A stretch of 64,000 nt of DNA, taken from contig OZ244651.1 of NCBI GenBank assembly GCA_965218695.1, positions 1,792,001-1,856,000 on the forward strand. Reading direction: 5' to 3'. Positions 4,652 to 20,029 of this stretch are shown here, in pieces. The first letter of the stretch is position 1. The number at the start of each line of letters is the position of its first letter. The position numbers were made by a program, and so were the translations under genes. The notes beneath the pieces are model-generated. The model saw only the letters and a program-made list of their open reading frames with translations, was not told the origin of the DNA and did not search any database. Source of the stretch: Nitrosopumilus sp. (lineage in GTDB: Archaea; Thermoproteota; Nitrososphaeria; Nitrososphaerales; Nitrosopumilaceae).

Positions 4652-5602
4652 ATGGCCGTAATGACCCCACTGAAAAGACGTTTAACCCAAACCATTCCAA
4701 TCAACTTGTTGGATTATGATTCGCTGCACCACTTCATCAAGTACAAGATGAGCATGACGCACGTCTACCAGCCAATCATGATACGTACGCTGCTGGAATC
4801 CGAGGACTGCAAGGCGACCCGAGAGGCGATTGCAAGGCAGTTCTTGGGCATGGACGAGTCCCAGTTGAACTACTACAAGGCGATAACTGCAAGGTGGCCG
4901 CACAAGACGCTGAAGGGGCACGGGATAGTAGAGTACGAAAGGAGGGGACAGGTGTACACCCTGCTTCTTGACGGCGCGACGGCAGGGCAGAAGGAGAGGC
5001 TGACGGAGCTGTGCGACCGCAGGCTTCACGAGTTCATCGACAGGGATCCGGCGATACGGCGATTGCGGGAGCATGACAGGCGCTCGCGTTCCGGCAGCCT
5101 CAGGTACGACGTCTTGGCAAAGTCCCGGGGCTTCTGCGCCGCATGCGGCGTTTCGTCCGCTGAGGCGCTGCTGCACGTAGACCACATAATACCGATCAGC
5201 TGGAATGGCAAAGACCAAATGGACAACATGCAGGCGCTGTGCTACAAGTGCAACACCCAGAAAAGGGACAGGGACGATACGGACTTTTTGCTGTGGCGCA
5301 AGAGGCTCCAGTTCAGGAAACCCGGATGTGCCATGTGTTCCAACGAGGCACACGCGCTTGGGAACGACCTGGCGTACTGCGTTCTGGGAGGGGCAGGCGA
5401 TCCTTCGATGGTGGTCCCCCGGAGGCATGCATTATCGTTCATGGATCTGATACCTGCCGAACGGCACCTCTGCATCGCGCTGGCGGATCGCGCCGTGCGG
5501 TGCTTGAAGGAACAACACGGGCGCGTGGCAGATTTTGACGTGAGGTTCGACGTGCCTGCCGACCACTACTCCATCAGGATCGCCCCAACAAGCAGGCAGT
5601 GA
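4652..5602 (+). CDS. HNH endonuclease with N-terminal winged-helix-like region and degenerate C-terminal HIT-like domain
   Basis: N-terminal 'MSMTHVYQPIMIRTLL'; HNH core CAACG...LHVDHIIP..G.D..DNMQALCYKCN; C-terminal CxxC...VVPRRH typical of HIT domains, but the HxHxH triad is lost. Confidence 0.8.
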   Translation: MAVMTPLKRRLTQTIPINLLDYDSLHHFIKYKMSMTHVYQPIMIRTLLESEDCKATREAIARQFLGMDESQLNYYKAITARWPHKTLKGHGIVEYERRGQVYTLLLDGATAGQKERLTELCDRRLHEFIDRDPAIRRLREHDRRSRSGSLRYDVLAKSRGFCAACGVSSAEALLHVDHIIPISWNGKDQMDNMQALCYKCNTQKRDRDDTDFLLWRKRLQFRKPGCAMCSNEAHALGNDLAYCVLGGAGDPSMVVPRRHALSFMDLIPAERHLCIALADRAVRCLKEQHGRVADFDVRFDVPADHYSIRIAPTSRQ

Positions 5603-7545: not shown

Positions 7546-8136
7546 CTAACCGAAGGCGTTCGGGCCTTCGAGCGGACCCTCTCTGTCTCTCCTCAACATC
7601 TCTTTCTTGACGGCCTTCTTGATCCTCTCTGGGGTGTAGTACGGATTTGCTTCCTTGAACTTCTTTAGGAGCTCCTTCTTGGTCTTGAGGCGTTCAGCCG
7701 ACTTGATGTGACTTATTCCCTTGTGGATCAGGGTTATCATGTCTGGGTTGGGATAGGCCAACAGTTTGCCGTCCTTTTCCTCGATCCATATGTCGGGCTC
7801 TAGGTTGAACTGTTTGGCCTTTTCCTTGATTCTGGGGAATGACTTCCGAACGTACGCCTCCGTCGTGCGACGTCTGAGGGATTGTACGGTGAACTCTTCC
7901 CGACATTCGAGGTGCGTCTTTTGGTTGTTGCTCGTGATGTCGGATTTTGGGATGATCTCATCACAGTGTACACAGATTTTGCGATCCTCGACCTTTATCA
8001 CGTCGGAGCATTCCAAATGGCGATCCTGCCCTTCGTAAGTGATGTGCGTAGAGTCCATTATGTCGTCACATACGACGCAGATTCTCGGCTTGAATTTTGG
8101 CCACTTTATTGTGGGTTTGGATTTTCTTCTGCCCAT
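7546..8136 (-). CDS. Basic hypothetical protein with two CxxC...HxxC zinc-finger units
   Basis: CVVC..(16)..HLEC and CVHC..(16)..HLEC; Lys/Arg-rich; TATA-like sequence about 25 nt upstream. Confidence 0.7.
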   Translation of the reverse strand: MGRRKSKPTIKWPKFKPRICVVCDDIMDSTHITYEGQDRHLECSDVIKVEDRKICVHCDEIIPKSDITSNNQKTHLECREEFTVQSLRRRTTEAYVRKSFPRIKEKAKQFNLEPDIWIEEKDGKLLAYPNPDMITLIHKGISHIKSAERLKTKKELLKKFKEANPYYTPERIKKAVKKEMLRRDREGPLEGPNAFG

Positions 8137-8371
8137 ACATTTGAAAAAACTTTAGTTCTATTATATAGTTGCGAGTTTACAATTAGACTGTATATCAGGC
8201 CTTATCCGGAAGAACTGCCTTCCGTTCCGGGCAATCGAGCCGTACGCTACGATCCTCTTGTGGTTGCTTGCGTATGGCACGTTTATGAAACGACCTGCCA
8301 TAGACCAATATTGACGGTCGACTATCACGTCGGGCACGAAAATTACCTGGGACAAGCGCATAAACGCCCAG

Positions 8372-8479
8372 ATCAAAACGGCGAATCCATCAAAACAAGG
8401 ATTGAAACCTCAAAAGATGGACGTCTCCAGGGATGAGACCGAGTCAAAACGACGAATCCATCAAAACAAGGATTGAAAC
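8372..8479 (+). CRISPR. Orphan mini-CRISPR array: two 37-bp repeats and one 34-bp spacer
   Basis: R1 8372-8408 ATCAAAACGGCGAATCCATCAAAACAAGGATTGAAAC; R2 8443-8479 GTCAAAACGACGAATCCATCAAAACAAGGATTGAAAC (35/37 identical); spacer 8409-8442 CTCAAAAGATGGACGTCTCCAGGGATGAGACCGA. The 3' end ATCCAxxAAAACAAGGATTGAAAC matches the known 37-nt archaeal repeat family of Methanosarcina type I-B/III arrays. Confidence 0.85.
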
Positions 8480-8596
8480 AACCACGCCGGTCACGCCGGT
8501 CACACGTTCAGGCAGTGTCCCAATTTTAGACTATTATTTTGCCTAGCTTACAATATAGTGTTATTCAGAATAATATTTATTTCAAGAACGGTCAAT

Positions 8597-9472
8597 ATGG
8601 CCATGCCCCGCCGTGCCAAAAAAGAGCTCCGCAACTTCACCCGCTCACTAAGGCTCGTCAAGCGATCCATCCGCCTCAACATACCCAGCTTTGTCAGCCG
8701 ATCCCTGTGCGTCAATCCCGGCGACCGCTTGGAGTGGTCGTTGAAATCCGGCATCCTCTGGTTCCGGATCGGTTCCGGGCCGAACAAGTTCTTCCTGCAA
8801 GGGCGCTCCCTGTACTGCACCGTCCCCATGAACTTGGCCAAATCTGCCGGATACTGGGACGGCGACTGGGTGCGGTTGAACGTGTACAGGGACGACTACC
8901 CGTTAGCCATATCCCTATCCCGCGCCAAACCGCCGCCCCCCGGCACGTTCGTCCGAGACAGGTGGAAGGAGGAAGAACGCGAGTGGGACAAAATGGTCGA
9001 TGAACTACGCCGGATCGAAGACGATAACAAGCGCCTGAAGAGAGAGAAATATGAATTGGAATTCGAGGTGAGACGCTTGAGGGCCACGGTAAGAGGGTAC
9101 AAGATCGGCGGTTCGTTCTCAGATTCGTGGTGGCTAGAGAAGCTTGACAAGATGAAAGATAACGTGGAAGGACCCCTGAAGGAAAAATTCGCCCGCGAAT
9201 TCGGCAAGGAATGGTGGCTCAACCCGTACTTCATCGCATCCAGCGTCGAATTTTTAAATATCACACCCAGCCGTAACTTGGAGGCACACTTTGCCGGCCT
9301 GCTGGCTAATTTCGACCTTGACGATCCGGGCATCGACAGGATAGAGGTTGAGGCGTACCGCCCCGTGCTAGAGATGGTCAAGTCCGGCATGTCACTGGCA
9401 GAAGCCGTGGCCTCCAACATACGGGCTTTCGCGGCTAGATCTTCAGGATCATCACCCCGTAGGTCTTTCTGA
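8597..9472 (+). CDS. Putative regulator with tandem AbrB/SpoVT-like domains and a coiled coil
   Basis: SIRLNIPSFVSRSLCVNPGDRLEW and SLYCTVPMNLAKSAGYWDGDWVRL are AbrB-like swapped-hairpin patterns; EEEREWDKMVDELRRIE...LEFEVRRLR is coiled coil. Confidence 0.65.
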   Translation: MAMPRRAKKELRNFTRSLRLVKRSIRLNIPSFVSRSLCVNPGDRLEWSLKSGILWFRIGSGPNKFFLQGRSLYCTVPMNLAKSAGYWDGDWVRLNVYRDDYPLAISLSRAKPPPPGTFVRDRWKEEEREWDKMVDELRRIEDDNKRLKREKYELEFEVRRLRATVRGYKIGGSFSDSWWLEKLDKMKDNVEGPLKEKFAREFGKEWWLNPYFIASSVEFLNITPSRNLEAHFAGLLANFDLDDPGIDRIEVEAYRPVLEMVKSGMSLAEAVASNIRAFAARSSGSSPRRSF

Positions 9473-9983
9473 TTCCCGAATCCCCGTCACACGGGGCAGA
9501 CATGGCATTTGCAAGGCTCCCGCAAGCGACTGTAAGGGAACGAGCGGGGCTCGATTCGCGCGTTCTCAGGATCCTGTCAGAATCTCACCTGTCATCTATC
9601 CCCCGCGCGCCCGGCCCCGTCACGCAGGCAGCTTGGAGTGCCAAGCATGGGAGAAACGACCCGCAGGCAAGCAAACCGTCAGGATCCCGGGGCATCCGCG
9701 AAGGCTTTGTACAATGGGTCGAACACCTGAGTACGGGTGCGGCCTCGTGGGGCAGAACTCGGCGGCATCTCACTGCTACCCTTCTTGCGGCATTCCCTGC
9801 ACCCGACGCATCAGAGGATCATTGGCGCCGACCAAGGCACGCCATGGATGGACGCGCTTCGGGACCGGGCTGCACGGGGAGCGAGTCACGGCGCACAGTT
9901 GCGTTTCCCCGCAGAGGGAAAACGGATTCGTGGAAAGCGGCAGACGTTCCCGTTTCCTGCCAGGCCGCGGCACGCACAACACG

Positions 9984-10190
9984 TCACGCCTCGGGATCGT
10001 AGGTTCCTGCCCTGACGGACTTTGATATCTTGCTGACCTTGGGACGGGAGATCGGCCGGTTCCAATAGGGCGACCGGCAACTTCGCACGCGGCAGCTGCC
10101 CGGCGGCTTGGTGCCTTTCAAGATCGTCCAAGTCCCACCGCACCGTTCGCAGGTGCACTTGATGGCCGTGACCGTGATCTCTTCCATCAT
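9984..10190 (-). CDS. Small zinc-finger protein of the archaeal mobile-element type
   Basis: CERCG.TW......PGSCRVRSCRSPYWN motif; transcribed divergently from the downstream operon; TATA-like sequence upstream. Confidence 0.7.
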   Translation of the reverse strand: MMEEITVTAIKCTCERCGGTWTILKGTKPPGSCRVRSCRSPYWNRPISRPKVSKISKSVRAGTYDPEA

Positions 10191-11232: not shown

Positions 11233-11321
11233 TGCAGGCTGCGTGCATCCGCGTCAGGCAGAACGCCGACGAGCCGTTTCTGACGCGTGCCGACAGGATG
11301 AACACGGAGCCGGCGCCATGA
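11229..11321 (+). CDS. 30-aa micro-ORF coupled to both neighbours
   Basis: MMQAACIRVRQNADEPFLTRADRMNTEPAP*; ATGA overlaps at both ends; not in the ORF track. Confidence 0.45.
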   Translation: MMQAACIRVRQNADEPFLTRADRMNTEPAP

Positions 11322-12703
11322 TCCTCTGGTGCACCAAGTGCAGGGAATTCCGCAAGAAGAACACGCCTGACTGGTCCGAGTGCAGGTACTCGTCCCGGCA
11401 CACGCTGGTGCCGGGCCACGAGAGGATGGAAAAGGAGCTGCGGCAGGTAAGGGAGAGGATCACCGCTTCCGGCAAGCCTCGCGACGAAGATCTCAAGAGG
11501 CTCGGCGCGCTCGAGGCCGTCAAGAACGCCGAGTCCGACAGCGACGACGAGAGGGGGCACATAGCTGCTGTGGCAGACGGGATGATCGCCGGGCACGCGT
11601 GCGTGGAGCGTGACCCCGGCGGGGCGTTCTTTTGGATGAAAAGCGGCGGCTCGTGGTACCTGTTCCGGCACGATGACGGCATGGTGACGGATCTGATCCA
11701 GGCCGGGTACTTTCGGAAGTACGGCGTGGTGGCGCCCGACTATTACGTGACGACTGCGCTGGCCTCGCACAGGCTGCGCGCCAAGTTTGATGGGCTGCGC
11801 GTGGACCGCGTCTGGAAGCGCGCCGGCTTTGACGGCCGCACGCTGTGGGTGGATCTGGGCGGGCAGCCCCGGCGCCTGTACGGGATATCTGCCGAAAAAC
11901 ACGGACCTGTCATCCCGTATTCCCCGGACGTGCGCGTGGTGATCGAGCGGCACGGAGCCGCGATGCCCGAACCCGAGCGGGGAGGCGAGGGGTGGCTGGA
12001 GAAGTTTCGCGCCATGCTGCGCGTGCGGGAGGAGCAGGCGGAGCTGTTCTGCGCGCACCTCTGCCACATGTTCTGCGCACACCACCAAACCCCCGCGATG
12101 CTGTTCTCCGGCCCGCCAGGCTCCGGCAAGACGGCGGTCGCCCGCCTCGTGCGGGAGTTGGTGGATCCGGTCGGGTTTGAATACGCCGTCGCGGTGCTGC
12201 CAAAGTCGGCAGATAGCCTGCGCAGGATCCTGGCAGGATCGCCGGCGGCATCGTTTGACAACGTGCGGCAGTTAAGCAGGGAGTCAGCCGACGCGATGTC
12301 GGGAGCGCTGGAAGGGCTGGCGATGATTGCAGGCGTGCAAAAGCATCCTGCATCTTTTGGCAACGTCCGCCTCGTAATGGCCGCGCCGGAAGGCAGACCA
12401 GCACGGCTGCATTCCCTGGAAGGCAAGACCGTCCGGTACGAGCTGTCGCCGGTGGAAGAGTGGAAGACCATGGGCGAGATGGCAGCCGATTTTTACGCCA
12501 TGAGGCCGCACCTGTACCACGAGATGTTCGACGTCCTGCACCGCGCCTTCGGGGATTCCCCGGTTGCCCGGCCATCCACCCGGATGGCCGACTTTGAGGT
12601 GCTGGGACGCTCCATTGCAAAACATGCCGGGCACGATGCAGACGGGTTTGTCGGATCTCTTCGTTTTGCGTTGTTGGATGGGACGATGCCGGGCACATCC
12701 TGA
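11318..12703 (+). CDS. Zn-finger plus P-loop ATPase; putative SF3/AAA-like replicative helicase of the element
   Basis: N-terminal WCTKC..C..H; Walker A GPPGSGKT; FDNV Walker B-like motif; C-terminal RMADF motif seen in plasmid/phage primase-associated ATPases. Confidence 0.7.
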   Translation: MILWCTKCREFRKKNTPDWSECRYSSRHTLVPGHERMEKELRQVRERITASGKPRDEDLKRLGALEAVKNAESDSDDERGHIAAVADGMIAGHACVERDPGGAFFWMKSGGSWYLFRHDDGMVTDLIQAGYFRKYGVVAPDYYVTTALASHRLRAKFDGLRVDRVWKRAGFDGRTLWVDLGGQPRRLYGISAEKHGPVIPYSPDVRVVIERHGAAMPEPERGGEGWLEKFRAMLRVREEQAELFCAHLCHMFCAHHQTPAMLFSGPPGSGKTAVARLVRELVDPVGFEYAVAVLPKSADSLRRILAGSPAASFDNVRQLSRESADAMSGALEGLAMIAGVQKHPASFGNVRLVMAAPEGRPARLHSLEGKTVRYELSPVEEWKTMGEMAADFYAMRPHLYHEMFDVLHRAFGDSPVARPSTRMADFEVLGRSIAKHAGHDADGFVGSLRFALLDGTMPGTS

Positions 12704-13466
12704 CCGACGGCAATCAATCCGGTTCAAGCCTAGTGTTTTTGCACGCCTTTTCGAGTTCTTCCCGTTTTATGTCGTTCATGTACCCAAGTAATGAGATCTG
12801 ATCCACAGTCTTTTCGATTAACTATTCAGGAACTTACGTGTCGCTATACTAGACTGTGCCGATGACATTCTCGGACAAAGACATCAGATGCGATCAGGCA
12901 AAGCGACTACAAGTGAGCAAAAGGAGACACGCCGTTCCAATAGACCGTGGTTTCAAAAAGTCCTTCAATGTAATGATAGGGCACGCCAAGGCGAAGTACC
13001 GGGGTAAGGAGGCATGGATGAGGCACGGTCATGAAAACCGTTCTTTTCATCATGTGTGCTGCCGGCTACAGCTGAAATGACTGCATTTTCCATCAACCAT
13101 GGGTCAACCTCCATTCAATGATCAGACATTTAACTCTGGAAACGCATCTGAGAGTAGTGATTAAAGCAACAGGTGGGACGATTTTGGCGGTCATGTTATT
13201 GATTGCCTTGTTTGGTTCACTTCCAGGTGGCGATGTGGTAGACTCTAAATCTGCTGCAACCAACGCGCAACAGAACATTGCAACTGATACAGTTGTCAAA
13301 ACAGGAGGTAAAGTAATCAATACATTAGAAGATATGCGTAATCCACCCATTTTGCCAACCCGGCCATAAAAAACCGGAAAAATACGGCCTAAAACTGCTC
13401 GTGTCGTGTATGTGGCAAGTCCGTTCACCCCAAAATCCAAAATGACGTGCGCAGCCTTGCAGCACT

Positions 13467-14810
13467 TCATCGTGCCCTGAATTCTACTTGACCGGAGCTT
13501 CGGAGCAGGCCCTGTCCCAGTCTACTGACGTCTTCCACTGCCCTGGCGGTGGCGGACCCTTTTCCATGCAGTCCCACAATGTTCAGGTTTACCAGCCCGG
13601 TGATCACGTTAAACTCCCTGTTGAACTGGGCCGCGTTGCCGTCGTACGGGTCGGCAAGACGCGCGTAGCGCTTGAGCCTGCCTATCGTGTGCTCCACCAA
13701 TACCCGGGTGGAGTTGATCCTGTGGTTGTGCTTTTTTTGCTCCGGCGTCAGCGGCGTGTCCCTGGTCTTCTTGTGCGGGATCTCCGGCGTGGTGCCGGGC
13801 AGGTGGTCTGCGATTCCCTGGTAGCCGCGGTCGACGAAGGGGTGGCACCTGTCTGATTCTGGCAGGTCCGGATCGTGCATCGCCTCCTCCCACTTTCCAA
13901 ACGGCATGGGGCGTTCCTTGAGCAGCGTGATGTCGCCGACTGACCCGACGGTGCTTTTTGATATGCCGATCACCACCCCGTCCCGGTTGGTGTACACGTT
14001 GGTATTGTTGGTGAACTTTTTCTTCTTACCGGAGTATCCCATGCGCCGGACTGACTTTACAGACGGGCGCTGCACGGGGCAGTGCGTGCCGTCTATGAAT
14101 ATCTCGCCCCCGTCGGGTCCGGGCACGATCTTCTTGAAATCCTCCCTGGTCGGGGCAGCAGCTACCTCCTCGGATATGTTGTCTGCCGTCGGAAGTATTC
14201 CTGCCAGCATCGCATCCATCACCGGAATGTACCGGGACACGGTGGTCTGGTCTATCCCGAAGAATGCGGCAAGCACGCCTTGGGCGGGGTTGTCCTTTTT
14301 GCGGATAAGTGCTAGGAGCAGTGCGTGTCTCAGGTACAGTTTGCACCGGTTTCCGGGATCGGATGTCCGGGATGCGTCATCGCGGAACAGCGGCATCTGG
14401 CCCGAATGCGTCAGAAACGCCTTGGCCCGCTCCAGCATGTACCGGAACTGTTCCCCGTCTGCCAGCGTGACATGGCGGAGCTTGTCCCCGTCGCGTATTA
14501 TGCCGTCTAGCACCTCTAGCAGGTGCAACGCGGGCCCCTTGCCGGGGTTCCAGCCATCGTTCCTGCCCTTCCACAGGCCGCGTTCAAGGCCCAACTCCCT
14601 GTCTTTCTGTTCCAGCTTTTTGTCTTTCTGCTTTAGAATATTTTTTAGGCTTCTGTCTTTCTGTTCCAGCTTTTTGTCTTTCTGCTTTAGAATATTTTTT
14701 AGGCTTCTGTCTTTCTGTTCCAGCTTTTTGTCTTTCTGCTTTAGAATATTTTTTAGGCTTCTGTTTTCTTGTTCCAATCTGTGCATGATCTGATCAGGCG
14801 AGTCTGGCAT
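13467..14810 (-). CDS. IS5/ISL2-type transposase with probable C-terminal frameshift
   Basis: IDGTH, YSGKKK, DRGYQG and VEHTIGRLK motifs; diverges from its paralogs after GLVNL. Confidence 0.9.
   Translation of the reverse strand: MPDSPDQIMHRLEQENRSLKNILKQKDKKLEQKDRSLKNILKQKDKKLEQKDRSLKNILKQKDKKLEQKDRELGLERGLWKGRNDGWNPGKGPALHLLEVLDGIIRDGDKLRHVTLADGEQFRYMLERAKAFLTHSGQMPLFRDDASRTSDPGNRCKLYLRHALLLALIRKKDNPAQGVLAAFFGIDQTTVSRYIPVMDAMLAGILPTADNISEEVAAAPTREDFKKIVPGPDGGEIFIDGTHCPVQRPSVKSVRRMGYSGKKKKFTNNTNVYTNRDGVVIGISKSTVGSVGDITLLKERPMPFGKWEEAMHDPDLPESDRCHPFVDRGYQGIADHLPGTTPEIPHKKTRDTPLTPEQKKHNHRINSTRVLVEHTIGRLKRYARLADPYDGNAAQFNREFNVITGLVNLNIVGLHGKGSATARAVEDVSRLGQGLLRSSGQVEFRAR
14599..14763. repeat. 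54-bp tandem repeat (about 3 copies) in the transposase 5' region
   Basis: Encodes (RSLKNILKQKDKKLEQKD)x3. Confidence 0.9.
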
Positions 14811-15165
14811 TTGATGTGAGACGCGATCGTGCCTGATCTAAATTTATCGATGTGAACAGGGGGATTACGCATATCTTCTATTGGGTGACCAAGCTATTAA
14901 TTCATCATGCAAGGATGCAGCATCACAAGCATGCTCAACTGCAACTACAACAGTAAATATGGCCGGAATTGCAATTACCGTACTTGTAGCTGCGTTGACA
15001 GTTTCTGGAATTTTGGGATTTGTGAAATTTGTTATGAATGTAGTTGAGAGTTTTTAGGGTACACCAGCAGGTTGCCGCAGAATGTATTCTAGGATTTGTG
15101 GCGGGTATTGGCCTGTTTGCATCCGCCGTATTCCAAAAGACGTTTGGGCGGCACGACGCTGCCGC

Positions 15166-15967
15166 CTAGCAAAAGTTCTGCGTCGCGTAGACCACCTCAT
15201 CGGCGCTTATCTCCACGCCAACGCCAATCCTGTCATACGTACTGCCCAAGATATTTTCCCTGTGTCCCGGGCTGCCCATCCATCCCGAAAATATTTCACT
15301 GGCCACATCTAATTCGCTCTCATGCCAATCATACGAGCTCGTCACGCCTGCCGTCACGTACGACGAATAGGTATGACCCTGCGAGATATTTTCCGCAAGC
15401 CCCTCAGTGTAATGTGTTCCGTAATCCTTCACGCACGAGTAGCCGGCCCGCTCTCCCCTGGCAGTGGGATCCAGGCCTTCCGGCGTGTCGTGCGCAAAAT
15501 AACTGCGCTCTGACATGTCCACGCTGTGGTTTCTGGCAACCGAGTCTATGACCGAAACCCTCGCAAGCTGGGGAATGCCCATGCGCTGCCGTTCGTCATT
15601 TGTGAACTGGTAGATGTAGTCTTCTATCACTCCACTGTCAAACCCGGATGCGGTTCTGACCGGGAGCGTTTCAGTGACTGACGTCACCCGGTTTGACAGA
15701 TCGTCGCTTATGTTTTCGATGTCAGGCATGTTGACTGTTATCTGGTTCTCGTTCAGTGTGATGTGTTTTGACACCTCATCCTGGACAAGTTCAGCCGCCC
15801 TGTCCGTCCCAATCCAGTATAGCGCGCCTGCAACCAGCACGACGGCAACCACTGCGACTATTATGCCCGTAAGGCGCTTGGTTCCACGCGTCCTGCCTCT
15901 TGATCTTTTTCCACATTTTGAGCAGTAGAACGAGCCCCTAGCGTATTGAAAATTATGAGCACCCCAT
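15166..15967 (-). CDS. CAP/SCP-domain secreted or membrane protein with a probable frameshift just after the start
   Basis: ARNHSVDM..YFAH, LAENI and WMGSPGHRENIL motifs. The in-frame upstream sequence has HNFQY..FYCSKCGKR and a TM helix, but ATG 15967 (ATG GGG TGC) is out of frame. Confidence 0.85.
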
Positions 15968-17549: not shown

Positions 17550-19157
17550 CTAGTCGTTCCCGTGTCTCGGATCGTGGCCCTCGGACAGGTCGCCGTCGTA
17601 CTCCTTGTTCCTGGCCTCGTACTCTGCCAGCGGGTCGCCCTTTACGTCCGGGCGCTTGGACAGCCTGCGCACCATGTCCTCCAAGACGCTTATCTTCTTG
17701 TTCTGCCTGGCAGTCACCTCCTCGATGTTGGCCCGGTGGATTTCCTCCATCTGGAGCAGGAGCGCCTTCAGGGCGTCCGTCTCGCTTGCCACCGCCCCGT
17801 CCTTCTTCGTGGCCTTGGGCCTCTTGAGGACGTTTCCCATTCCGAACATCTTGAGGCGCAGATTCTCCAAGTCCTCCACCTTCTTTTCCAGCCGCGCCAT
17901 CTTGGCGTCTTTTTCCGGCTGGGCCTCGGCGGCGCTGGCTGCCACATCCAGCAGTTCCTTGGCCCGGGCCATCTGCTTTCGCAGTTCGGCCTCGTGGACC
18001 TCCTTCTCCGACTCGAGGTTCCGTATGTTCTCGGACATGCGTCGGGTGGACTGCTTGAGCCTGGTCGCGTCGCTTACCGTCAGGTCCGGCACGACTGCCA
18101 GGTACTCCTGCGCAAGCTCCAGCACGGAGGTCTTGAAATAGTTCTGGTCAAGCGAGATCATCCCCTTGTGTCCCATCATGAACTCCTTTTTTATCAGCGA
18201 GGCAAGCGGCGAATCGGACGAGAGCGCCTCCTTGCACGTCTTGTTGTAGAACCGCCTGAACCCGTTGGTGAGTGGGACGTTGTGCCTCCTGGACTTGCCC
18301 GTATTGGGAGGACGCAGCTTGGCGTGCGTCACTATCCTGTCCAGCCGCTTTTTGACTGACTGCATCGAGGCCCTCTTGGGGATGCCCCTAATGGCAAGGA
18401 ATATCGGATCCTTCGGGCCTGGCTGTCGTCCCATGTGGTCTGCCCACGTGAGTCCGTACACCTTGAGGGATTCGTACGCCTCCGGGGTTATGAAGGCCAT
18501 GTAGTTTGCCGCCGAGCCCCGGTACACCTGCAGCATGGCGCACGCGACTTCGCAGGCCTCTGCCCCGGGATCCAACACGAGATTGCCGTTGACGCGGTAT
18601 ATCGGCACCAAGTCTTCCCAGTTCAGGTCTATCCCGCCTATGCGCGCGCCCGAGCTTGACAGCACCAGCACCAGCGCCTGTTCCATGGGATCGCGCGCGT
18701 GTTTGAGCATCATGCTTATTTCTTCCCTTGACCACCCACGCGATTCCTGGATGTTGTCAAGTTCCGGGTACGTCGCGTAGAGCCGCTTCCACGGCATCAC
18801 GATATCGTTCATGTCGAATAGTTTCTTGATCGGCTTGAAGTAGTTGCCAAACGTGGTCGGGTTGAGGTAGTCCGGATCGTCCTTGGGCAGGGTGGTCCTC
18901 TCCCGCAGCTTCCTAGACAGGTTAAGCAGCAGGTCGCGCGTCCACTCCTGGTCCTCCCTGCCGTGTTTTACCAGCTGCGCCACGCGCTCCTCGAAGTCGC
19001 CTTCGAGTATCTCCTCAAAGTACTGGCACAGTATCTGGCGCAGCGTCCGGGTGTACTTTTCCTGGGTGTACTTTGCCTTTATGCCCTGCATGAACAGCTC
19101 CAGCGGCGCCGCGTCCCCGCTCCTGACGATCTCGTCTTTTGTCAATCTCACACACAT
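17550..19157 (-). CDS. Tyrosine recombinase/integrase with a long C-terminal coiled coil
   Basis: SSGARIG (R), NGFRRF (HxxR variant), MMGH and NYF (Tyr); starts 39 bp from the tRNA-Lys 3' end. Confidence 0.88.
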   Translation of the reverse strand: MCVRLTKDEIVRSGDAAPLELFMQGIKAKYTQEKYTRTLRQILCQYFEEILEGDFEERVAQLVKHGREDQEWTRDLLLNLSRKLRERTTLPKDDPDYLNPTTFGNYFKPIKKLFDMNDIVMPWKRLYATYPELDNIQESRGWSREEISMMLKHARDPMEQALVLVLSSSGARIGGIDLNWEDLVPIYRVNGNLVLDPGAEACEVACAMLQVYRGSAANYMAFITPEAYESLKVYGLTWADHMGRQPGPKDPIFLAIRGIPKRASMQSVKKRLDRIVTHAKLRPPNTGKSRRHNVPLTNGFRRFYNKTCKEALSSDSPLASLIKKEFMMGHKGMISLDQNYFKTSVLELAQEYLAVVPDLTVSDATRLKQSTRRMSENIRNLESEKEVHEAELRKQMARAKELLDVAASAAEAQPEKDAKMARLEKKVEDLENLRLKMFGMGNVLKRPKATKKDGAVASETDALKALLLQMEEIHRANIEEVTARQNKKISVLEDMVRRLSKRPDVKGDPLAEYEARNKEYDGDLSEGHDPRHGND

Positions 19158-19195
19158 GAATACGTGTGGAACCTATAAAAGTTCTTTAAAGGTAG

Positions 19196-19269
19196 CGGGT
19201 CTAGAGGGATTCGAACCCTCGACACCAGGATTAAGAGTCCTGCGCGCTACCTGGCTGCGCCATAGACCC
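19196..19269 (-). tRNA. tRNA-Lys(CTT)
   Basis: GGGTCTA acceptor stem; anticodon arm CAGGA-CTCTTAA-TCCTG; T arm GAGGG-TTCGAAT-CCCTC. Confidence 0.95.
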
Positions 19270-19426
19270 ACCAAAATGGATGTGGCTGGTCTTGTTATTA
19301 ATCTTGAGATTGTGCCATCCGGCATGTCCGGCCTCAATGGATATGGTCACGAAGCAGTCAGTAACATGCATGGAATGGTACACGACGAAAACGGACAGTG
19401 ATAGTTAAGGAACTTGGATGTGTAAT

Positions 19427-20029
19427 TTAGTTTTGTGCTGTTGCTTCTATCTCGTTGTACTTTTCAATGATTGCCGTAAGTGCAGTTGATACCGGAACGT
19501 CGTTCATCTTTTTCTTTTCTGCAAGAAGCTTCTGGTATGCATCAAGTGTAATGTATACCGGAATTGAACCGTTCCCCTCAAGCAGGCCCCTCACGTTATA
19601 CAGTGCAGTCTCCATTCCCCTTTCGGCAGACTTTGCAAACTTTGCCTTGTCCATTATGGCTCCTAGCGGACCAAATGGCATCTCATAGTCTGCACTCATT
19701 GTCACCCGGGTAAGGTTGCCGCCCAGTGCCTGAAACTCGTTGGTGATCTGCCACCTTTTGAACGGGCCTTCAATCTGCTTTGCAGATATCCTTTCATTCC
19801 GGATAAACTCAGTCGTCTCGCAGTCCCATTCCAGACGCTTTCCGCCAAAGTCGCCGATAATCCTAAACGTTGTGCCCACACCCATGCCTTCCTTGATATC
19901 CATTGGAACGACGGTCATGCCCACGGCATCAGTCTTGATTTGATCGGATACATGTTCTGGTCTTGCAAAGTATGTAAAGACGTTCTCTATAGGCGTCTTT
20001 ATGTCAATTGATTTGGTGACGAGAGTCAA
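19427..20029 (-). CDS. SRPBCC/polyketide cyclase family protein
   Basis: KSIDIKTPIENVFTY...GPFKRW..TRVTMSADYEMPFGPLG pattern. Confidence 0.85.
   Translation of the reverse strand: MTLVTKSIDIKTPIENVFTYFARPEHVSDQIKTDAVGMTVVPMDIKEGMGVGTTFRIIGDFGGKRLEWDCETTEFIRNERISAKQIEGPFKRWQITNEFQALGGNLTRVTMSADYEMPFGPLGAIMDKAKFAKSAERGMETALYNVRGLLEGNGSIPVYITLDAYQKLLAEKKKMNDVPVSTALTAIIEKYNEIEATAQN

What the first reader, a model, noticed from the sequence alone, without database searches (positions are those of the whole stretch)
8372..8479. Orphan single-spacer mini-CRISPR array inside an integrated thaumarchaeal mobile element
Seen: two 37-bp repeats (35/37 identical) ending in ATTGAAAC flank a 34-bp unique spacer. 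They sit in an intergenic gap between a Zn-finger gene and an AbrB-like gene, inside an island with its own integrase and helicase, and I recognised no cas gene in the 64 kb. Known: this repeat end matches the Methanosarcina-type 37-nt family, which Cas6 cuts to leave an AUUGAAAC 5' handle (type I-B/III). Mini-arrays on archaeal viruses (e.g. Saccharolobus SPV1/2) borrow host Cas to exclude competing elements, and crRNA-like RNAs can act as repressors (CreA-type) or decoys (Racr). Inference: the element supplies one guide to a host Cascade/Csm complex, against a rival element or for regulation. I know of no description of this in Nitrosopumilaceae. The spacer contains a possible gene start (CAAAAG-ATG GAC GTC...), and the ~35 nt after repeat 2 could be a second, repeat-less guide.
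Basis: partly seen in the sequence, partly recalled or inferred. Interest (0 to 1): 0.9.

Follow-up and report, generated by a model that had tools for sequence, protein, structure and literature searches.

The report
Orphan one-spacer CRISPR unit on island
A genuine but minimal CRISPR array (two repeats around one spacer) sits on an inserted DNA island in an ammonia-oxidising archaeon whose assembled genome has no CRISPR genes, so it is most likely a stranded leftover, and an ordinary kind of object.

Summary
Two 37-nt repeats (35/37 identical; 8372-8408 and 8443-8479) flank a 34-nt spacer. Both pass Rfam's CRISPR-DR7 threshold.

Their 24-nt 3' part builds long arrays beside type I-B cas operons in congeners.

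The assembled 2.63-Mb genome holds no other copy, no other array and no cas gene.

There is no leader. A 144-nt internal fragment of an IS630-like transposase gene ends 23 nt upstream.

Synteny supports an insertion at tRNA-Lys: the right flank is conserved in 3 of 3 congeners and one has an empty site. The left end is unresolved.

No target was found for the spacer or the post-repeat sequence.

Best reading (0.55): a stranded, leaderless type I-B unit that does nothing in this host. Rival (0.28): island cargo that works only with Cas supplied in trans.

Units of three or fewer repeats, or single repeats, recur in 7 of 100 sampled congeners. The scan has met similar orphan one-spacer units on other DNA.

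Verdict: new member of a known kind; modest interest.

The parts
8372..8408 (+). CRISPR repeat 1 (37 nt; starts ATC, ends ATTGAAAC)
   Evidence: Rfam CRISPR-DR7, 44.6 bits against a gathering score of 37; 35/37 identical to repeat 2.
8409..8442 (+). Spacer, 34 nt, 53% G+C, unique in the genome
   Evidence: Best other match in the own genome is 13 nt, E 0.68. No match in 400 family genomes at up to 3 mismatches, IMG/VR with the exact sequence, JGI metagenomes with N at every sixth position, or phage and plasmid records.
8443..8479 (+). CRISPR repeat 2 (37 nt; canonical GTC...GAAAC)
   Evidence: Rfam CRISPR-DR7, 45.0 bits. A weak 5-bp hairpin AAUCC/GGAUU with a 10-nt loop lies just 5' of the expected cut.
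8205..8348 (-). Internal 144-nt fragment of an IS630-like transposase gene (pseudogene relic)
   Evidence: About 79-81% identical to 10 copies of a ~1.1-kb IS that encodes a 337-aa transposase. It aligns to positions 391-535 of a 1148-nt extract (the IS plus 20 nt on each side), and both IS ends are missing.
8349..8371 (.). 23 unique nt between the IS relic and repeat 1; no leader. Possibly the stump of an earlier spacer (inference)
   Evidence: Leaders of three cas-linked arrays end in an A-rich motif (AAAAT..CCAAAAAAC..). This motif is absent here.
8480..8596 (+). Unique sequence after repeat 2, with a 9-nt tandem duplication (8485-8502) and T runs near 8524-8545, then the promoter region of the next gene
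   Evidence: Read. No target in the own genome beyond 14 nt and none locally: best 21/34, which is the level of shuffled sequences.
7546..8136 (-). 196-aa protein with two CxxC...HLEC motifs, transcribed away from the unit
   Evidence: ORF. No family hit in Pfam, PHROGs or NCBIfam. No paralogue in the genome.
8597..9472 (+). 291-aa protein of unknown family, transcribed away from the unit
   Evidence: One homologue (51% identity) among 5.8 billion proteins. None in 400 family genomes or in the 150 other genus genomes.
13467..14810 (-). IS transposase (DDE_Tnp_4) inside the island
   Evidence: Pfam PF13359, E 2.6e-21.
17550..19157 (-). 535-aa integrase-family gene next to the tRNA
   Evidence: 411 homologues, several of them named integrase by their sources. 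No hit in Pfam, NCBIfam or PDB sequences. Paralogues in the genome, one of them beside a second tRNA-Lys.
19195..19269 (-). tRNA-Lys (CTT), right border of the inserted DNA
   Evidence: ARAGORN and Rfam. The right flank is syntenic in 3 of 3 congeners; G384 has an empty site and G371 has another integrase-like gene there.

Best explanation
This is a genuine but stranded type I-B CRISPR unit (repeat-spacer-repeat) carried on DNA inserted at a tRNA-Lys gene. It was made in a cell that had Cas proteins. Either a longer island-borne array was cut down by IS-mediated deletion (favoured), or a single spacer was integrated at a solitary repeat. In the assembled host there is no Cas6 to cut the transcript, no Cascade to load it, and no leader or Cas1-Cas2 to extend it. 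It therefore does nothing as a CRISPR element here and is kept only because too little time has passed for it to decay.

Shown: the identity of the repeats, the absence of cas genes and other arrays from the assembly, the absence of a leader, the transposase relic beside it, and the insertion at the tRNA.

Inferred: the order of events and the present lack of function.
For: The repeats are a CRISPR family: Rfam CRISPR-DR7 matches both.

The 24-nt 3' part builds cas-linked arrays in relatives. In the family, G145 has 43 copies, G131 has 12 and G109 has 10, each beside a Cas3 that scores over the cut-off. In the genus, G374 has 132 copies, G311 has 19, G411 has 14 and G325 has 8. G371 has at least 67 copies next to a cas gene cluster.

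G013, of the same genus, carries a cas8-7-5-3-6-1-2-4 operon typed I-B by NCBIfam.

The host genome is 99.99% complete. It has no Cas1, no Cas6, no RAMP protein and no Cas3 over the cut-off. tblastn with 16 proteins from the cas loci of G013 and G145 found nothing better than a helicase at E 8e-4. No other CRISPR array was found.

There is no leader motif. An internal 144-nt piece of an IS630-like transposase gene ends 23 nt upstream, so the region is a patchwork of deletions.

In G322 a three-repeat unit also abuts a truncated IS630-type (DDE_3) gene, and that 99%-complete genome has no Cas7 homologue.

The island looks decayed. It holds an IS transposase. No direct att copy of 12 nt or more lies in the 49 kb to the left; the only copy is an inverted 23-mer 42 kb away.

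No target was found for the spacer.
Against: Both repeats keep the 24-nt core without a single change. The two differences lie in the variable 5' part, which would also fit selection; however, P = (13/37)^2 = 0.12, so this is not informative.

The genome is a metagenome-type assembly of 9 contigs, so a cas locus on an unassembled element cannot be excluded.

Two other places in the genome carry exact 36-nt duplications around 35- and 33-nt unique inserts. That is the geometry of a CRISPR unit. If these are off-target spacer integrations, an adaptation module acted on this lineage recently.

Four of 5 large congeners have a Cas3 over the cut-off, so compatible machinery is close by in evolutionary terms.

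Similar short units and single repeats recur in the genus, some beside replication genes of mobile elements. This hints at a use rather than at repeated accidents.
Confidence: 0.55

Rival explanations
1. It is a working mini-array carried as cargo. The island supplies one guide (and perhaps a second, 3'-handle-less one after repeat 2) to a type I-B Cascade provided in trans. That Cascade would come from a co-resident element missing from the assembly, or from a Cas-bearing congener after transfer. The purpose would be to exclude a competing element, or to soak up Cas6/Cascade as a decoy (a Racr-like role).
For: Mini-arrays of 1-2 spacers and single repeat units on viruses and mobile elements are an established class (passages read in PMC11656645, and PMC6858448).

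The core and the 8-nt ATTGAAAC end are intact in both repeats.

In Haloferax type I-B the 3' handle is dispensable for interference (passages in PMC6546412).

The single difference from the genus core (A for T) lies in the loop of the weak hairpin.

Congeners have matching systems.

G013 carries a one-spacer unit, plus a solitary copy of the same repeat between DUF5906 and Prim-Pol/D5_N genes, alongside its own I-B system.

IMG/VR holds one two-repeat unit and two single repeats with the exact core.

The spacer's G+C content (53%) matches this high-G+C lineage rather than the ~32-34% of the loci read from low-G+C congeners.
Against: No Cas partner is present in the assembly.

No target was found for the spacer or for the sequence after repeat 2. 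None was found for the G013 spacer either, in 150 other genus genomes.

No leader or recognisable promoter is present.

The unit abuts a transposase relic, and the island lacks an intact direct att pair.

No array with the full 28-nt repeat-specific pattern was found in JGI metagenomes or IMG/VR.
Confidence: 0.28
2. On origin only (compatible with either reading of present function): the unit arose from a solitary repeat that received a single spacer from Cas1-Cas2 without a leader. It was not cut down from a longer array.
For: Solitary copies of this repeat family are common. The genus has 4 genomes with one copy, plus the solitary copy in G013. GTDB loci include many single copies.

The genome holds two other A-B-A units with exact 36-nt duplications and 33-35-nt inserts that look like leaderless integrations.

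The idea came from earlier notes of this scan. The paper they name (Nivala, Shipman and Church) was not seen; 'neo-CRISPR' has 0 occurrences among the papers listed.
Against: A fresh integration copies the repeat exactly, but repeats 1 and 2 differ at 2 of 37 positions. The transposase relic 23 nt upstream fits truncation better. The empty sites for the two other units could not be recovered in 5 of 5 congeners, because their intergenic DNA is too diverged.
Confidence: 0.2
3. It is a Cas-independent or crRNA-like regulator: the repeats or the spacer RNA control the two divergent flanking genes, either as a CreA-type antitoxin or repressor or as protein-binding operators.
For: The unit lies in a 460-nt divergent intergenic region between two genes for possibly DNA-binding proteins of unknown family.
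Against: Within 20 kb there is no partial match of the spacer or of the post-repeat sequence to any nearby sequence. The best is 21/34, the level of shuffled spacers (mean 20.1, maximum 22), and no site has a full seed. The known crRNA-like regulators need Cascade, which is absent. The repeat sequence is the ordinary array repeat of relatives, so it is not specific to these genes. The flanking genes have no detectable relatives with which to test co-occurrence.
Confidence: 0.05

Closest known systems
Orphan and truncated CRISPR arrays in genomes or mobile elements without a cas cluster (e.g. Bernheim et al. 2019, PMC7145637; only the search listing and abstract start were seen)
   Same: Bona fide repeats, no cas genes in the genome, no leader, and signs of rearrangement beside the array.
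   Different: Only one spacer. The repeats are almost undecayed. It lies on a tRNA-integrated island of an ammonia-oxidising archaeon.
Virus- and element-borne mini-CRISPR arrays (Saccharolobus SPV1/SPV2, Medvedeva et al. 2019, PMC6858448; review by Koonin and Makarova 2024, PMC11656645)
   Same: One to two spacers, no cas genes of its own, carried on a mobile element, and repeats of a type used by hosts in the same genus.
   Different: The SPV arrays have host-like leaders and spacers that hit sister viruses, and their hosts have the matching Cas system. Here there is no leader, no target was found, and the assembled host has no Cas system.
Stand-alone CRISPR arrays on integrated elements of Thaumarchaeota (Krupovic et al. 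2019, PMC6563490; passages read)
   Same: Cas-less arrays carried by integrated elements of the same phylum, thought to derive from type I-B loci by loss of cas genes.
   Different: Those arrays have 69 and 96 spacers, repeats identical to a host array, and sit in Nitrosocaldus conjugative elements. 'Mini-CRISPR' does not occur in that paper's main text. Its supplementary tables could not be seen.
Solitary repeat units / RNA anti-CRISPRs (Racr; Camara-Wilpert et al. 2023, PMC10651486; only the listing and abstract start were seen)
   Same: Repeat mimics on mobile elements. Single copies of this very repeat family occur in congeners and in IMG/VR contigs.
   Different: Here there are two repeats with a spacer, and there is no cognate Cas system in the host to inhibit.

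Membership tests
CRISPR array (Rfam CRISPR-DR7 repeat family, type I-B-linked) | Two or more direct repeats of 23-50 nt separated by a unique spacer of similar size | tested here: met
   37-34-37 nt, 35/37 identical.
CRISPR array (Rfam CRISPR-DR7 repeat family, type I-B-linked) | The repeat matches a curated CRISPR repeat model and builds long arrays beside cas genes in relatives | tested here: met
   45.0 and 44.6 bits against a gathering score of 37. Arrays of 8-132 copies in congeners. Cas3 over the cut-off lies within about 4 kb of the arrays in G145, G131 and G109. The G013 operon is typed I-B.
CRISPR array (Rfam CRISPR-DR7 repeat family, type I-B-linked) | A leader with promoter upstream of the first repeat | tested here: not met
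   The A-rich leader end shared by 3 cas-linked arrays is absent. A transposase fragment ends 23 nt upstream.
CRISPR-Cas system (functional locus) | Cognate cas genes (Cas6, Cascade, Cas3, Cas1-Cas2) in the same genome | tested here: not met
   on all 9 contigs. An unassembled element cannot be excluded.
Element-borne mini-CRISPR array (SPV type) | One or two spacers on a virus or other mobile element | tested here: met
   One spacer. The DNA is inserted at tRNA-Lys beside an integrase-family gene. The right flank is syntenic in 3 of 3 congeners and G384 has an empty site. The left border is unresolved.
Element-borne mini-CRISPR array (SPV type) | Repeats identical or nearly identical to those of the host's own CRISPR array | tested here: not met
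   The host has no array. The nearest full repeat found is 33/37 (a single copy), and 32/37 in arrays and in the G371 array (repeat read; identity counted by hand).
Element-borne mini-CRISPR array (SPV type) | The spacer targets a related or competing element | tested here: inconclusive
   No match in the own genome, 400 family genomes, IMG/VR, JGI metagenomes, phage or plasmid records. The collection scans accept exact patterns only, and the local mobilome is poorly sampled.
Solitary repeat unit / RNA anti-CRISPR | A repeat mimic expressed in a cell whose Cas proteins it binds | tested here: not met
   No Cas proteins in the assembly. Expression could not be tested: no RNA run is listed.
crRNA-like regulators (CreA / crlRNA mini-arrays) | Located in or beside a cas operon, with partial spacer complementarity to a nearby promoter | tested here: not met
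   No cas operon. Best local match 21/34, the level of shuffled sequences, and no full seed.

The most novel reading that the evidence does not exclude
Leaderless one-spacer units and solitary repeats that carry the genus-wide type I-B handle may be a recurrent weapon of mobile elements in this group of marine ammonia oxidisers. They would be kept intact on islands because they hijack or jam the Cascade of whichever Cas-bearing host, or co-resident cas-carrying element, the island meets. On this reading the cas-less state of this genome is only apparent or recent. The two spacer-sized insertions with exact 36-nt duplications elsewhere in the chromosome hint at that.
Probability: 0.22. Interest if true: 0.55.

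Novelty: new member of a known kind. Interest (0 to 1): 0.3.

Why it matters
It matters little as it stands. Orphan arrays and element-borne mini-arrays are known classes, and cas-less arrays on integrated elements of this phylum are already in print.

It would matter more if the short units and single repeats scattered through this genus proved to be expressed and loaded by type I-B Cascade. That would extend the mini-array and RNA anti-CRISPR strategies from hyperthermophile viruses and bacteriophages to the mobile elements of abundant marine nitrifiers. It would also give a handle on virus-host and element-element conflicts in a group with very few cultured viruses.

The two spacer-sized insertion units elsewhere in the genome could record CRISPR adaptation in a lineage that now appears to lack cas genes.

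Tried and rejected
Tried without result:

(1) Spacer targets. I searched the own genome, IMG/VR with the exact spacer, JGI metagenomes with N at positions 6, 12, 18, 24 and 30, 400 family genomes at up to 3 mismatches, and phage and plasmid records by blastn. I also looked for partial matches within 20 kb. Nothing was found.

(2) A 'home' array with the same full repeat. A 28-nt repeat-specific pattern found none in JGI metagenomes or IMG/VR. The best repeat among GTDB loci was 33/37.

(3) Related islands.
- The 291-aa neighbour has one homologue (P0003, 51%) among 5.8 billion proteins. It has none in 400 family genomes, in all 150 other genus genomes or in IMG/VR.
- The 196-aa neighbour has none in IMG/VR.

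(4) Expression. No RNA holder is listed.

(5) Variation between samples. The contigs of X1 and X3 are identical over the unit. For X4 and X5 the listed pieces do not cover the unit, and 669 pieces were not shown.

(6) A direct att repeat. None of 12 nt or more lies in the 49 kb to the left.

(7) Integrase family by profile. No hit in Pfam, NCBIfam or PDB sequences. The name rests on what sources call its homologues.

(8) A deletion scar at the place where G371 keeps its CRISPR-Cas locus. The far flank there is variable and no scar could be defined.

(9) Empty sites for the two 36-nt duplication units. The flanking genes are syntenic in 5 of 5 congeners, but the intergenic DNA is too diverged.

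(10) The target of the G013 mini-array spacer in 150 other genus genomes: none.

Rejected readings:
- A chance repeat.
- A coding gene start in the spacer (a 19-codon frame).
- A type III guide: no RAMP gene in any of the 5 genomes tested.
- CreA-type local regulation.

Papers:
- PMC6563490, PMC11656645, PMC6858448 and PMC6546412: passages found by term search only.
- PMC10651486, PMC7145637 and 10.1101/2023.03.03.530964: search listing and abstract start only.
- Faure et al. 2019 and Nivala et al. 2018: recalled, or named in scan notes; not seen.
- Supplements are closed. The supplementary element tables of PMC6563490 might list small arrays.
- 'No description in this family' rests on searches only.

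Full report
**1.
The window reads repeat 1 at 8372-8408, a 34-nt spacer at 8409-8442 and repeat 2 at 8443-8479. The repeats differ at positions 1 (A/G) and 9 (G/A). The 24-nt 3' part occurs twice in the window, whereas 100 shuffles gave none. It occurs only twice in the whole 2,627,169-base, 9-contig genome, which is 99.99% complete by markers and 52.8% G+C. Both copies match Rfam CRISPR-DR7 end to end above the curated threshold (45.0 and 44.6 bits against 37). No third, decayed copy lies within about 500 nt (best 18/37, null mean 18.9). Contigs from two separate runs of one study cover the unit without a difference, so it is not an artefact of this one assembly.

**2. These are CRISPR repeats of the kind used by relatives.**
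- Family sample: 14 of 151 genomes, G000 included, match the 24-nt core at up to 3 mismatches. The reversed control pattern matched none. G145 has 43 copies, G131 has 12 and G109 has 10. This tally includes one genome flagged as unpublished (G077, a single copy).
- In those three genomes a Cas3 scoring over the curated cut-off lies within about 4 kb of the array.
- Genus sample: 12 of 101 genomes, G000 included, match. G374 has 132 copies, G311 has 19, G411 has 14 and G325 has 8.
- G371 has an array of at least 67 copies of a repeat 32/37 identical to ours, next to a cas gene cluster.
- G013, of the same genus, carries cas8-cas7-cas5-cas3-cas6-cas1-cas2-cas4. NCBIfam gives its best hits to type I-B Cas7/Csh2 and Cas5b, and Cas3, Cas1, Cas2 and Cas4 score over their cut-offs.
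- No RAMP (type III) protein was found in any of the 5 genomes tested.
- The exact core is cosmopolitan. It occurs in 51 GTDB loci from bacteria and archaea, both as arrays and as single copies. The first 13 nt of the repeat vary from array to array.
- The repeat folds only into a weak 5-bp hairpin next to the expected cut site.
- That type I-B crRNAs carry an 8-nt 5' handle, and that the 3' handle is dispensable in Haloferax, comes from passages of PMC6546412. That the handle of this family reads AUUGAAAC is recalled.

**3. The host has nothing to use it with.**
- Cas1 (PF01867): no match. Cas6 (PF01881): only a 13.6-bit fragment containing stop codons.
- RAMP: none.
- Cas3 core: best 61.9 bits against a cut-off of 102.45, which is ordinary helicases.
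- tblastn with 16 proteins taken from the cas loci of G013 and G145 found only a helicase at E 8e-4.
- My repeat scans found no other CRISPR array. The larger periodic repeats are coding tandem repeats.
- Caveat: a cas locus on an unassembled element cannot be excluded.

**4. Anatomy of the intergenic region.**
The unit lies in 460 nt between two divergent genes of unknown family: a 196-aa protein with CxxC motifs on the minus strand and a 291-aa protein on the plus strand. Neither has any profile hit.

Positions 8205-8348 are a 144-nt internal fragment, about 79-81% identical, of a ~1.1-kb IS630-like element. That element is present in 10 such copies and encodes a 337-aa transposase. Both IS ends are missing here. 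Only 23 nt separate this relic from repeat 1.

The leaders of three cas-linked arrays end in a shared A-rich motif that is absent here. The region is therefore a patchwork left by deletions. The unit has neither the leader needed for regular spacer uptake nor a recognisable promoter of its own. Any transcription would have to come from the quasi-symmetric TATA-like box near 8164-8170 that probably serves the minus-strand gene; this is inference from reading.

**5. The surroundings are inserted DNA.**
- A 535-aa gene (17550-19157, minus strand) abuts the 3' end of tRNA-Lys(CTT) at 19195-19269. It has 411 homologues, several of them called integrase by their sources. No profile or PDB sequence match supports the name.
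- The gene to the right of the tRNA is 84-93% identical in 5 of 5 large congeners. In the 3 whose neighbourhoods I fetched, the right flank is syntenic.
- The left side differs in each. G384 has a conserved chromosomal gene 17 nt from the tRNA (an empty site). G371 has another integrase-like gene there. G368 has 3.8 kb of unmatched DNA and then a block that in G000 lies at C1:1756564-1762315.
- The insertion is therefore at most about 49 kb, and the unit lies 10.7 kb inside it.
- The left end is unresolved. No direct copy of the tRNA end of 12 nt or more exists in that span; there is only an inverted 23-mer 42 kb away.
- The island also holds an IS transposase, an HNH nuclease, a NYN domain protein and a STAND NTPase. 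The '486-aa helicase' shows only sub-threshold AAA hits.

**6. No target.**
The spacer (53% G+C, like the host) has no match beyond 13 nt in the own genome. It has none in 400 family genomes at up to 3 mismatches, none in IMG/VR, none in JGI metagenomes with every sixth position free, and none in phage or plasmid records. Locally, neither the spacer nor the 34 nt after repeat 2 matches anything better than shuffled spacers do (21/34 against a mean of 20.1 and maximum of 22). A CreA-type link to the flanking genes is therefore not supported.

**7. Short units recur in the genus.**
Among the 100 other genus genomes sampled, 7 have three or fewer copies: G013 (2+1), G322 (3), G394 (2), and G406, G279, G387 and G219 (1 each).
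- A Cas7 query found a homologue in only 1 of the 5 tested (G406). It was missing from the 99%-complete G322.
- The G322 unit abuts a truncated IS630-type gene.
- The G013 one-spacer unit has a different spacer and lies near an IS240-type transposase. Its solitary repeat lies between DUF5906 and Prim-Pol/D5_N genes, which is an element's replication module.
- IMG/VR holds one two-repeat unit and two single copies of the exact core.
- This pattern fits both repeated erosion of sporadic, element-borne CRISPR loci and deliberate carriage by elements. I could not separate the two.

**8. Reading.**
I favour (0.55) a stranded type I-B unit with no present function. The reasons are the absence of a Cas partner, leader and target, the transposase relic at its edge, and a decayed island.

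The main rival (0.28) is cargo that works with Cas supplied in trans. It is kept alive by four points: the intact core and handle, the nearness of compatible systems (Cas3 over the cut-off in 4 of 5 large congeners), the recurrence in the genus, and a side observation. That observation is two other places in the chromosome with exact 36-nt duplications around unique 35- and 33-nt inserts (C1:273412 and C1:1090664). This is the geometry of a CRISPR unit and matches the 36-nt repeats of the G384 and G013 arrays. If these are off-target spacer integrations, an adaptation module acted on this lineage recently. I could not recover the empty sites.

**9. Comparison and novelty.**
Element-borne mini-arrays, solitary repeat units and orphan arrays are established classes. 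Cas-less arrays on integrated thaumarchaeal elements are in print, though with 69 and 96 spacers. Three literature searches gave no description of one-spacer units in this family. Earlier follow-ups of this scan met comparable orphan one-spacer units on other DNA. This is a new member of a known kind, of modest interest.

Noticed in passing
G000 C1:273412-273518 and C1:1090664-1090768 (outside the window): Two A-B-A units of non-CRISPR sequence with CRISPR geometry: exact 36-nt duplications around unique 35-nt and 33-nt inserts (periods 71 and 69). There is no third copy, and the inserts match nothing else in the genome. They may be off-target Cas1-Cas2 integration scars in a genome without cas genes.
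   Followed up: partly
L021 (G013:C1:34000-53999) 9915-10023 and L020 (G013:C1:1510000-1515000) 2314-2350: A same-genus genome with a complete type I-B system and a 67-repeat array also carries a one-spacer unit and a solitary repeat. These belong to a different repeat variant that shares only the 3' end with its own array. The solitary copy lies between DUF5906 and Prim-Pol/D5_N genes.
   Followed up: partly
L079 (G322:C2:1406000-1423000) 8489-8660: A three-repeat unit with degenerate 5' halves lies directly beside a truncated IS630-type (DDE_3) gene, in a 99%-complete genome in which no Cas7 homologue was found. This parallels the transposase relic beside the unit studied here.
   Followed up: partly
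L024 (IMG/VR contig, 117,770 nt), minus strand near 1763-1891; L022 and L023: One viral contig carries a two-repeat, one-spacer unit in which only the 3' 22-24 nt of the repeats are conserved. Two other viral contigs carry single copies of the exact 24-nt core. None shares other sequence with this genome.
   Followed up: partly
G000 C1:1106888-1106962 and C1:1105219-1106847: A second tRNA-Lys gene (90.7% identical) has a 55%-identical paralogue of the integrase-family gene beside it in the same arrangement. This suggests a second island at a paralogous site. Further paralogues lie at C1:490538-491725 (41%) and as a fragment at C1:2438574-2439068.
   Followed up: no
G000 C1:1769183-1769205 (22.8 kb before the window): A 23-nt copy of the 3' end of tRNA-Lys lies 42 kb from the tRNA in inverted orientation. 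This would fit an att site turned round by a later inversion.
   Followed up: partly
G000 C1:531483-532590 and many other places: The genome is rich in insertion sequences. A ~1.1-kb IS630-like element occurs in about 10 near-identical copies, here nested inside a ~1.55-kb element that has some 25 copies.
   Followed up: partly
window 11243-12703 and G000 C2:13095-14519: The 486-aa AAA-type ATPase of the island has an 80%-identical paralogue on a small contig that also holds long 75-nt coding tandem repeats.
   Followed up: no
window 4670-5600, 13341-15341, 18010-20000: In the runs that hold this genome at depth about 8-13, contigs 80-95% similar to the HNH gene, the IS and the integrase/tRNA region reach summed depths of 100 to over 1000. 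Much more abundant relatives therefore share these parts.
   Followed up: no
window 8485-8502: A perfect 9-nt tandem duplication (CGCCGGTCA twice) lies just after repeat 2.
   Followed up: no
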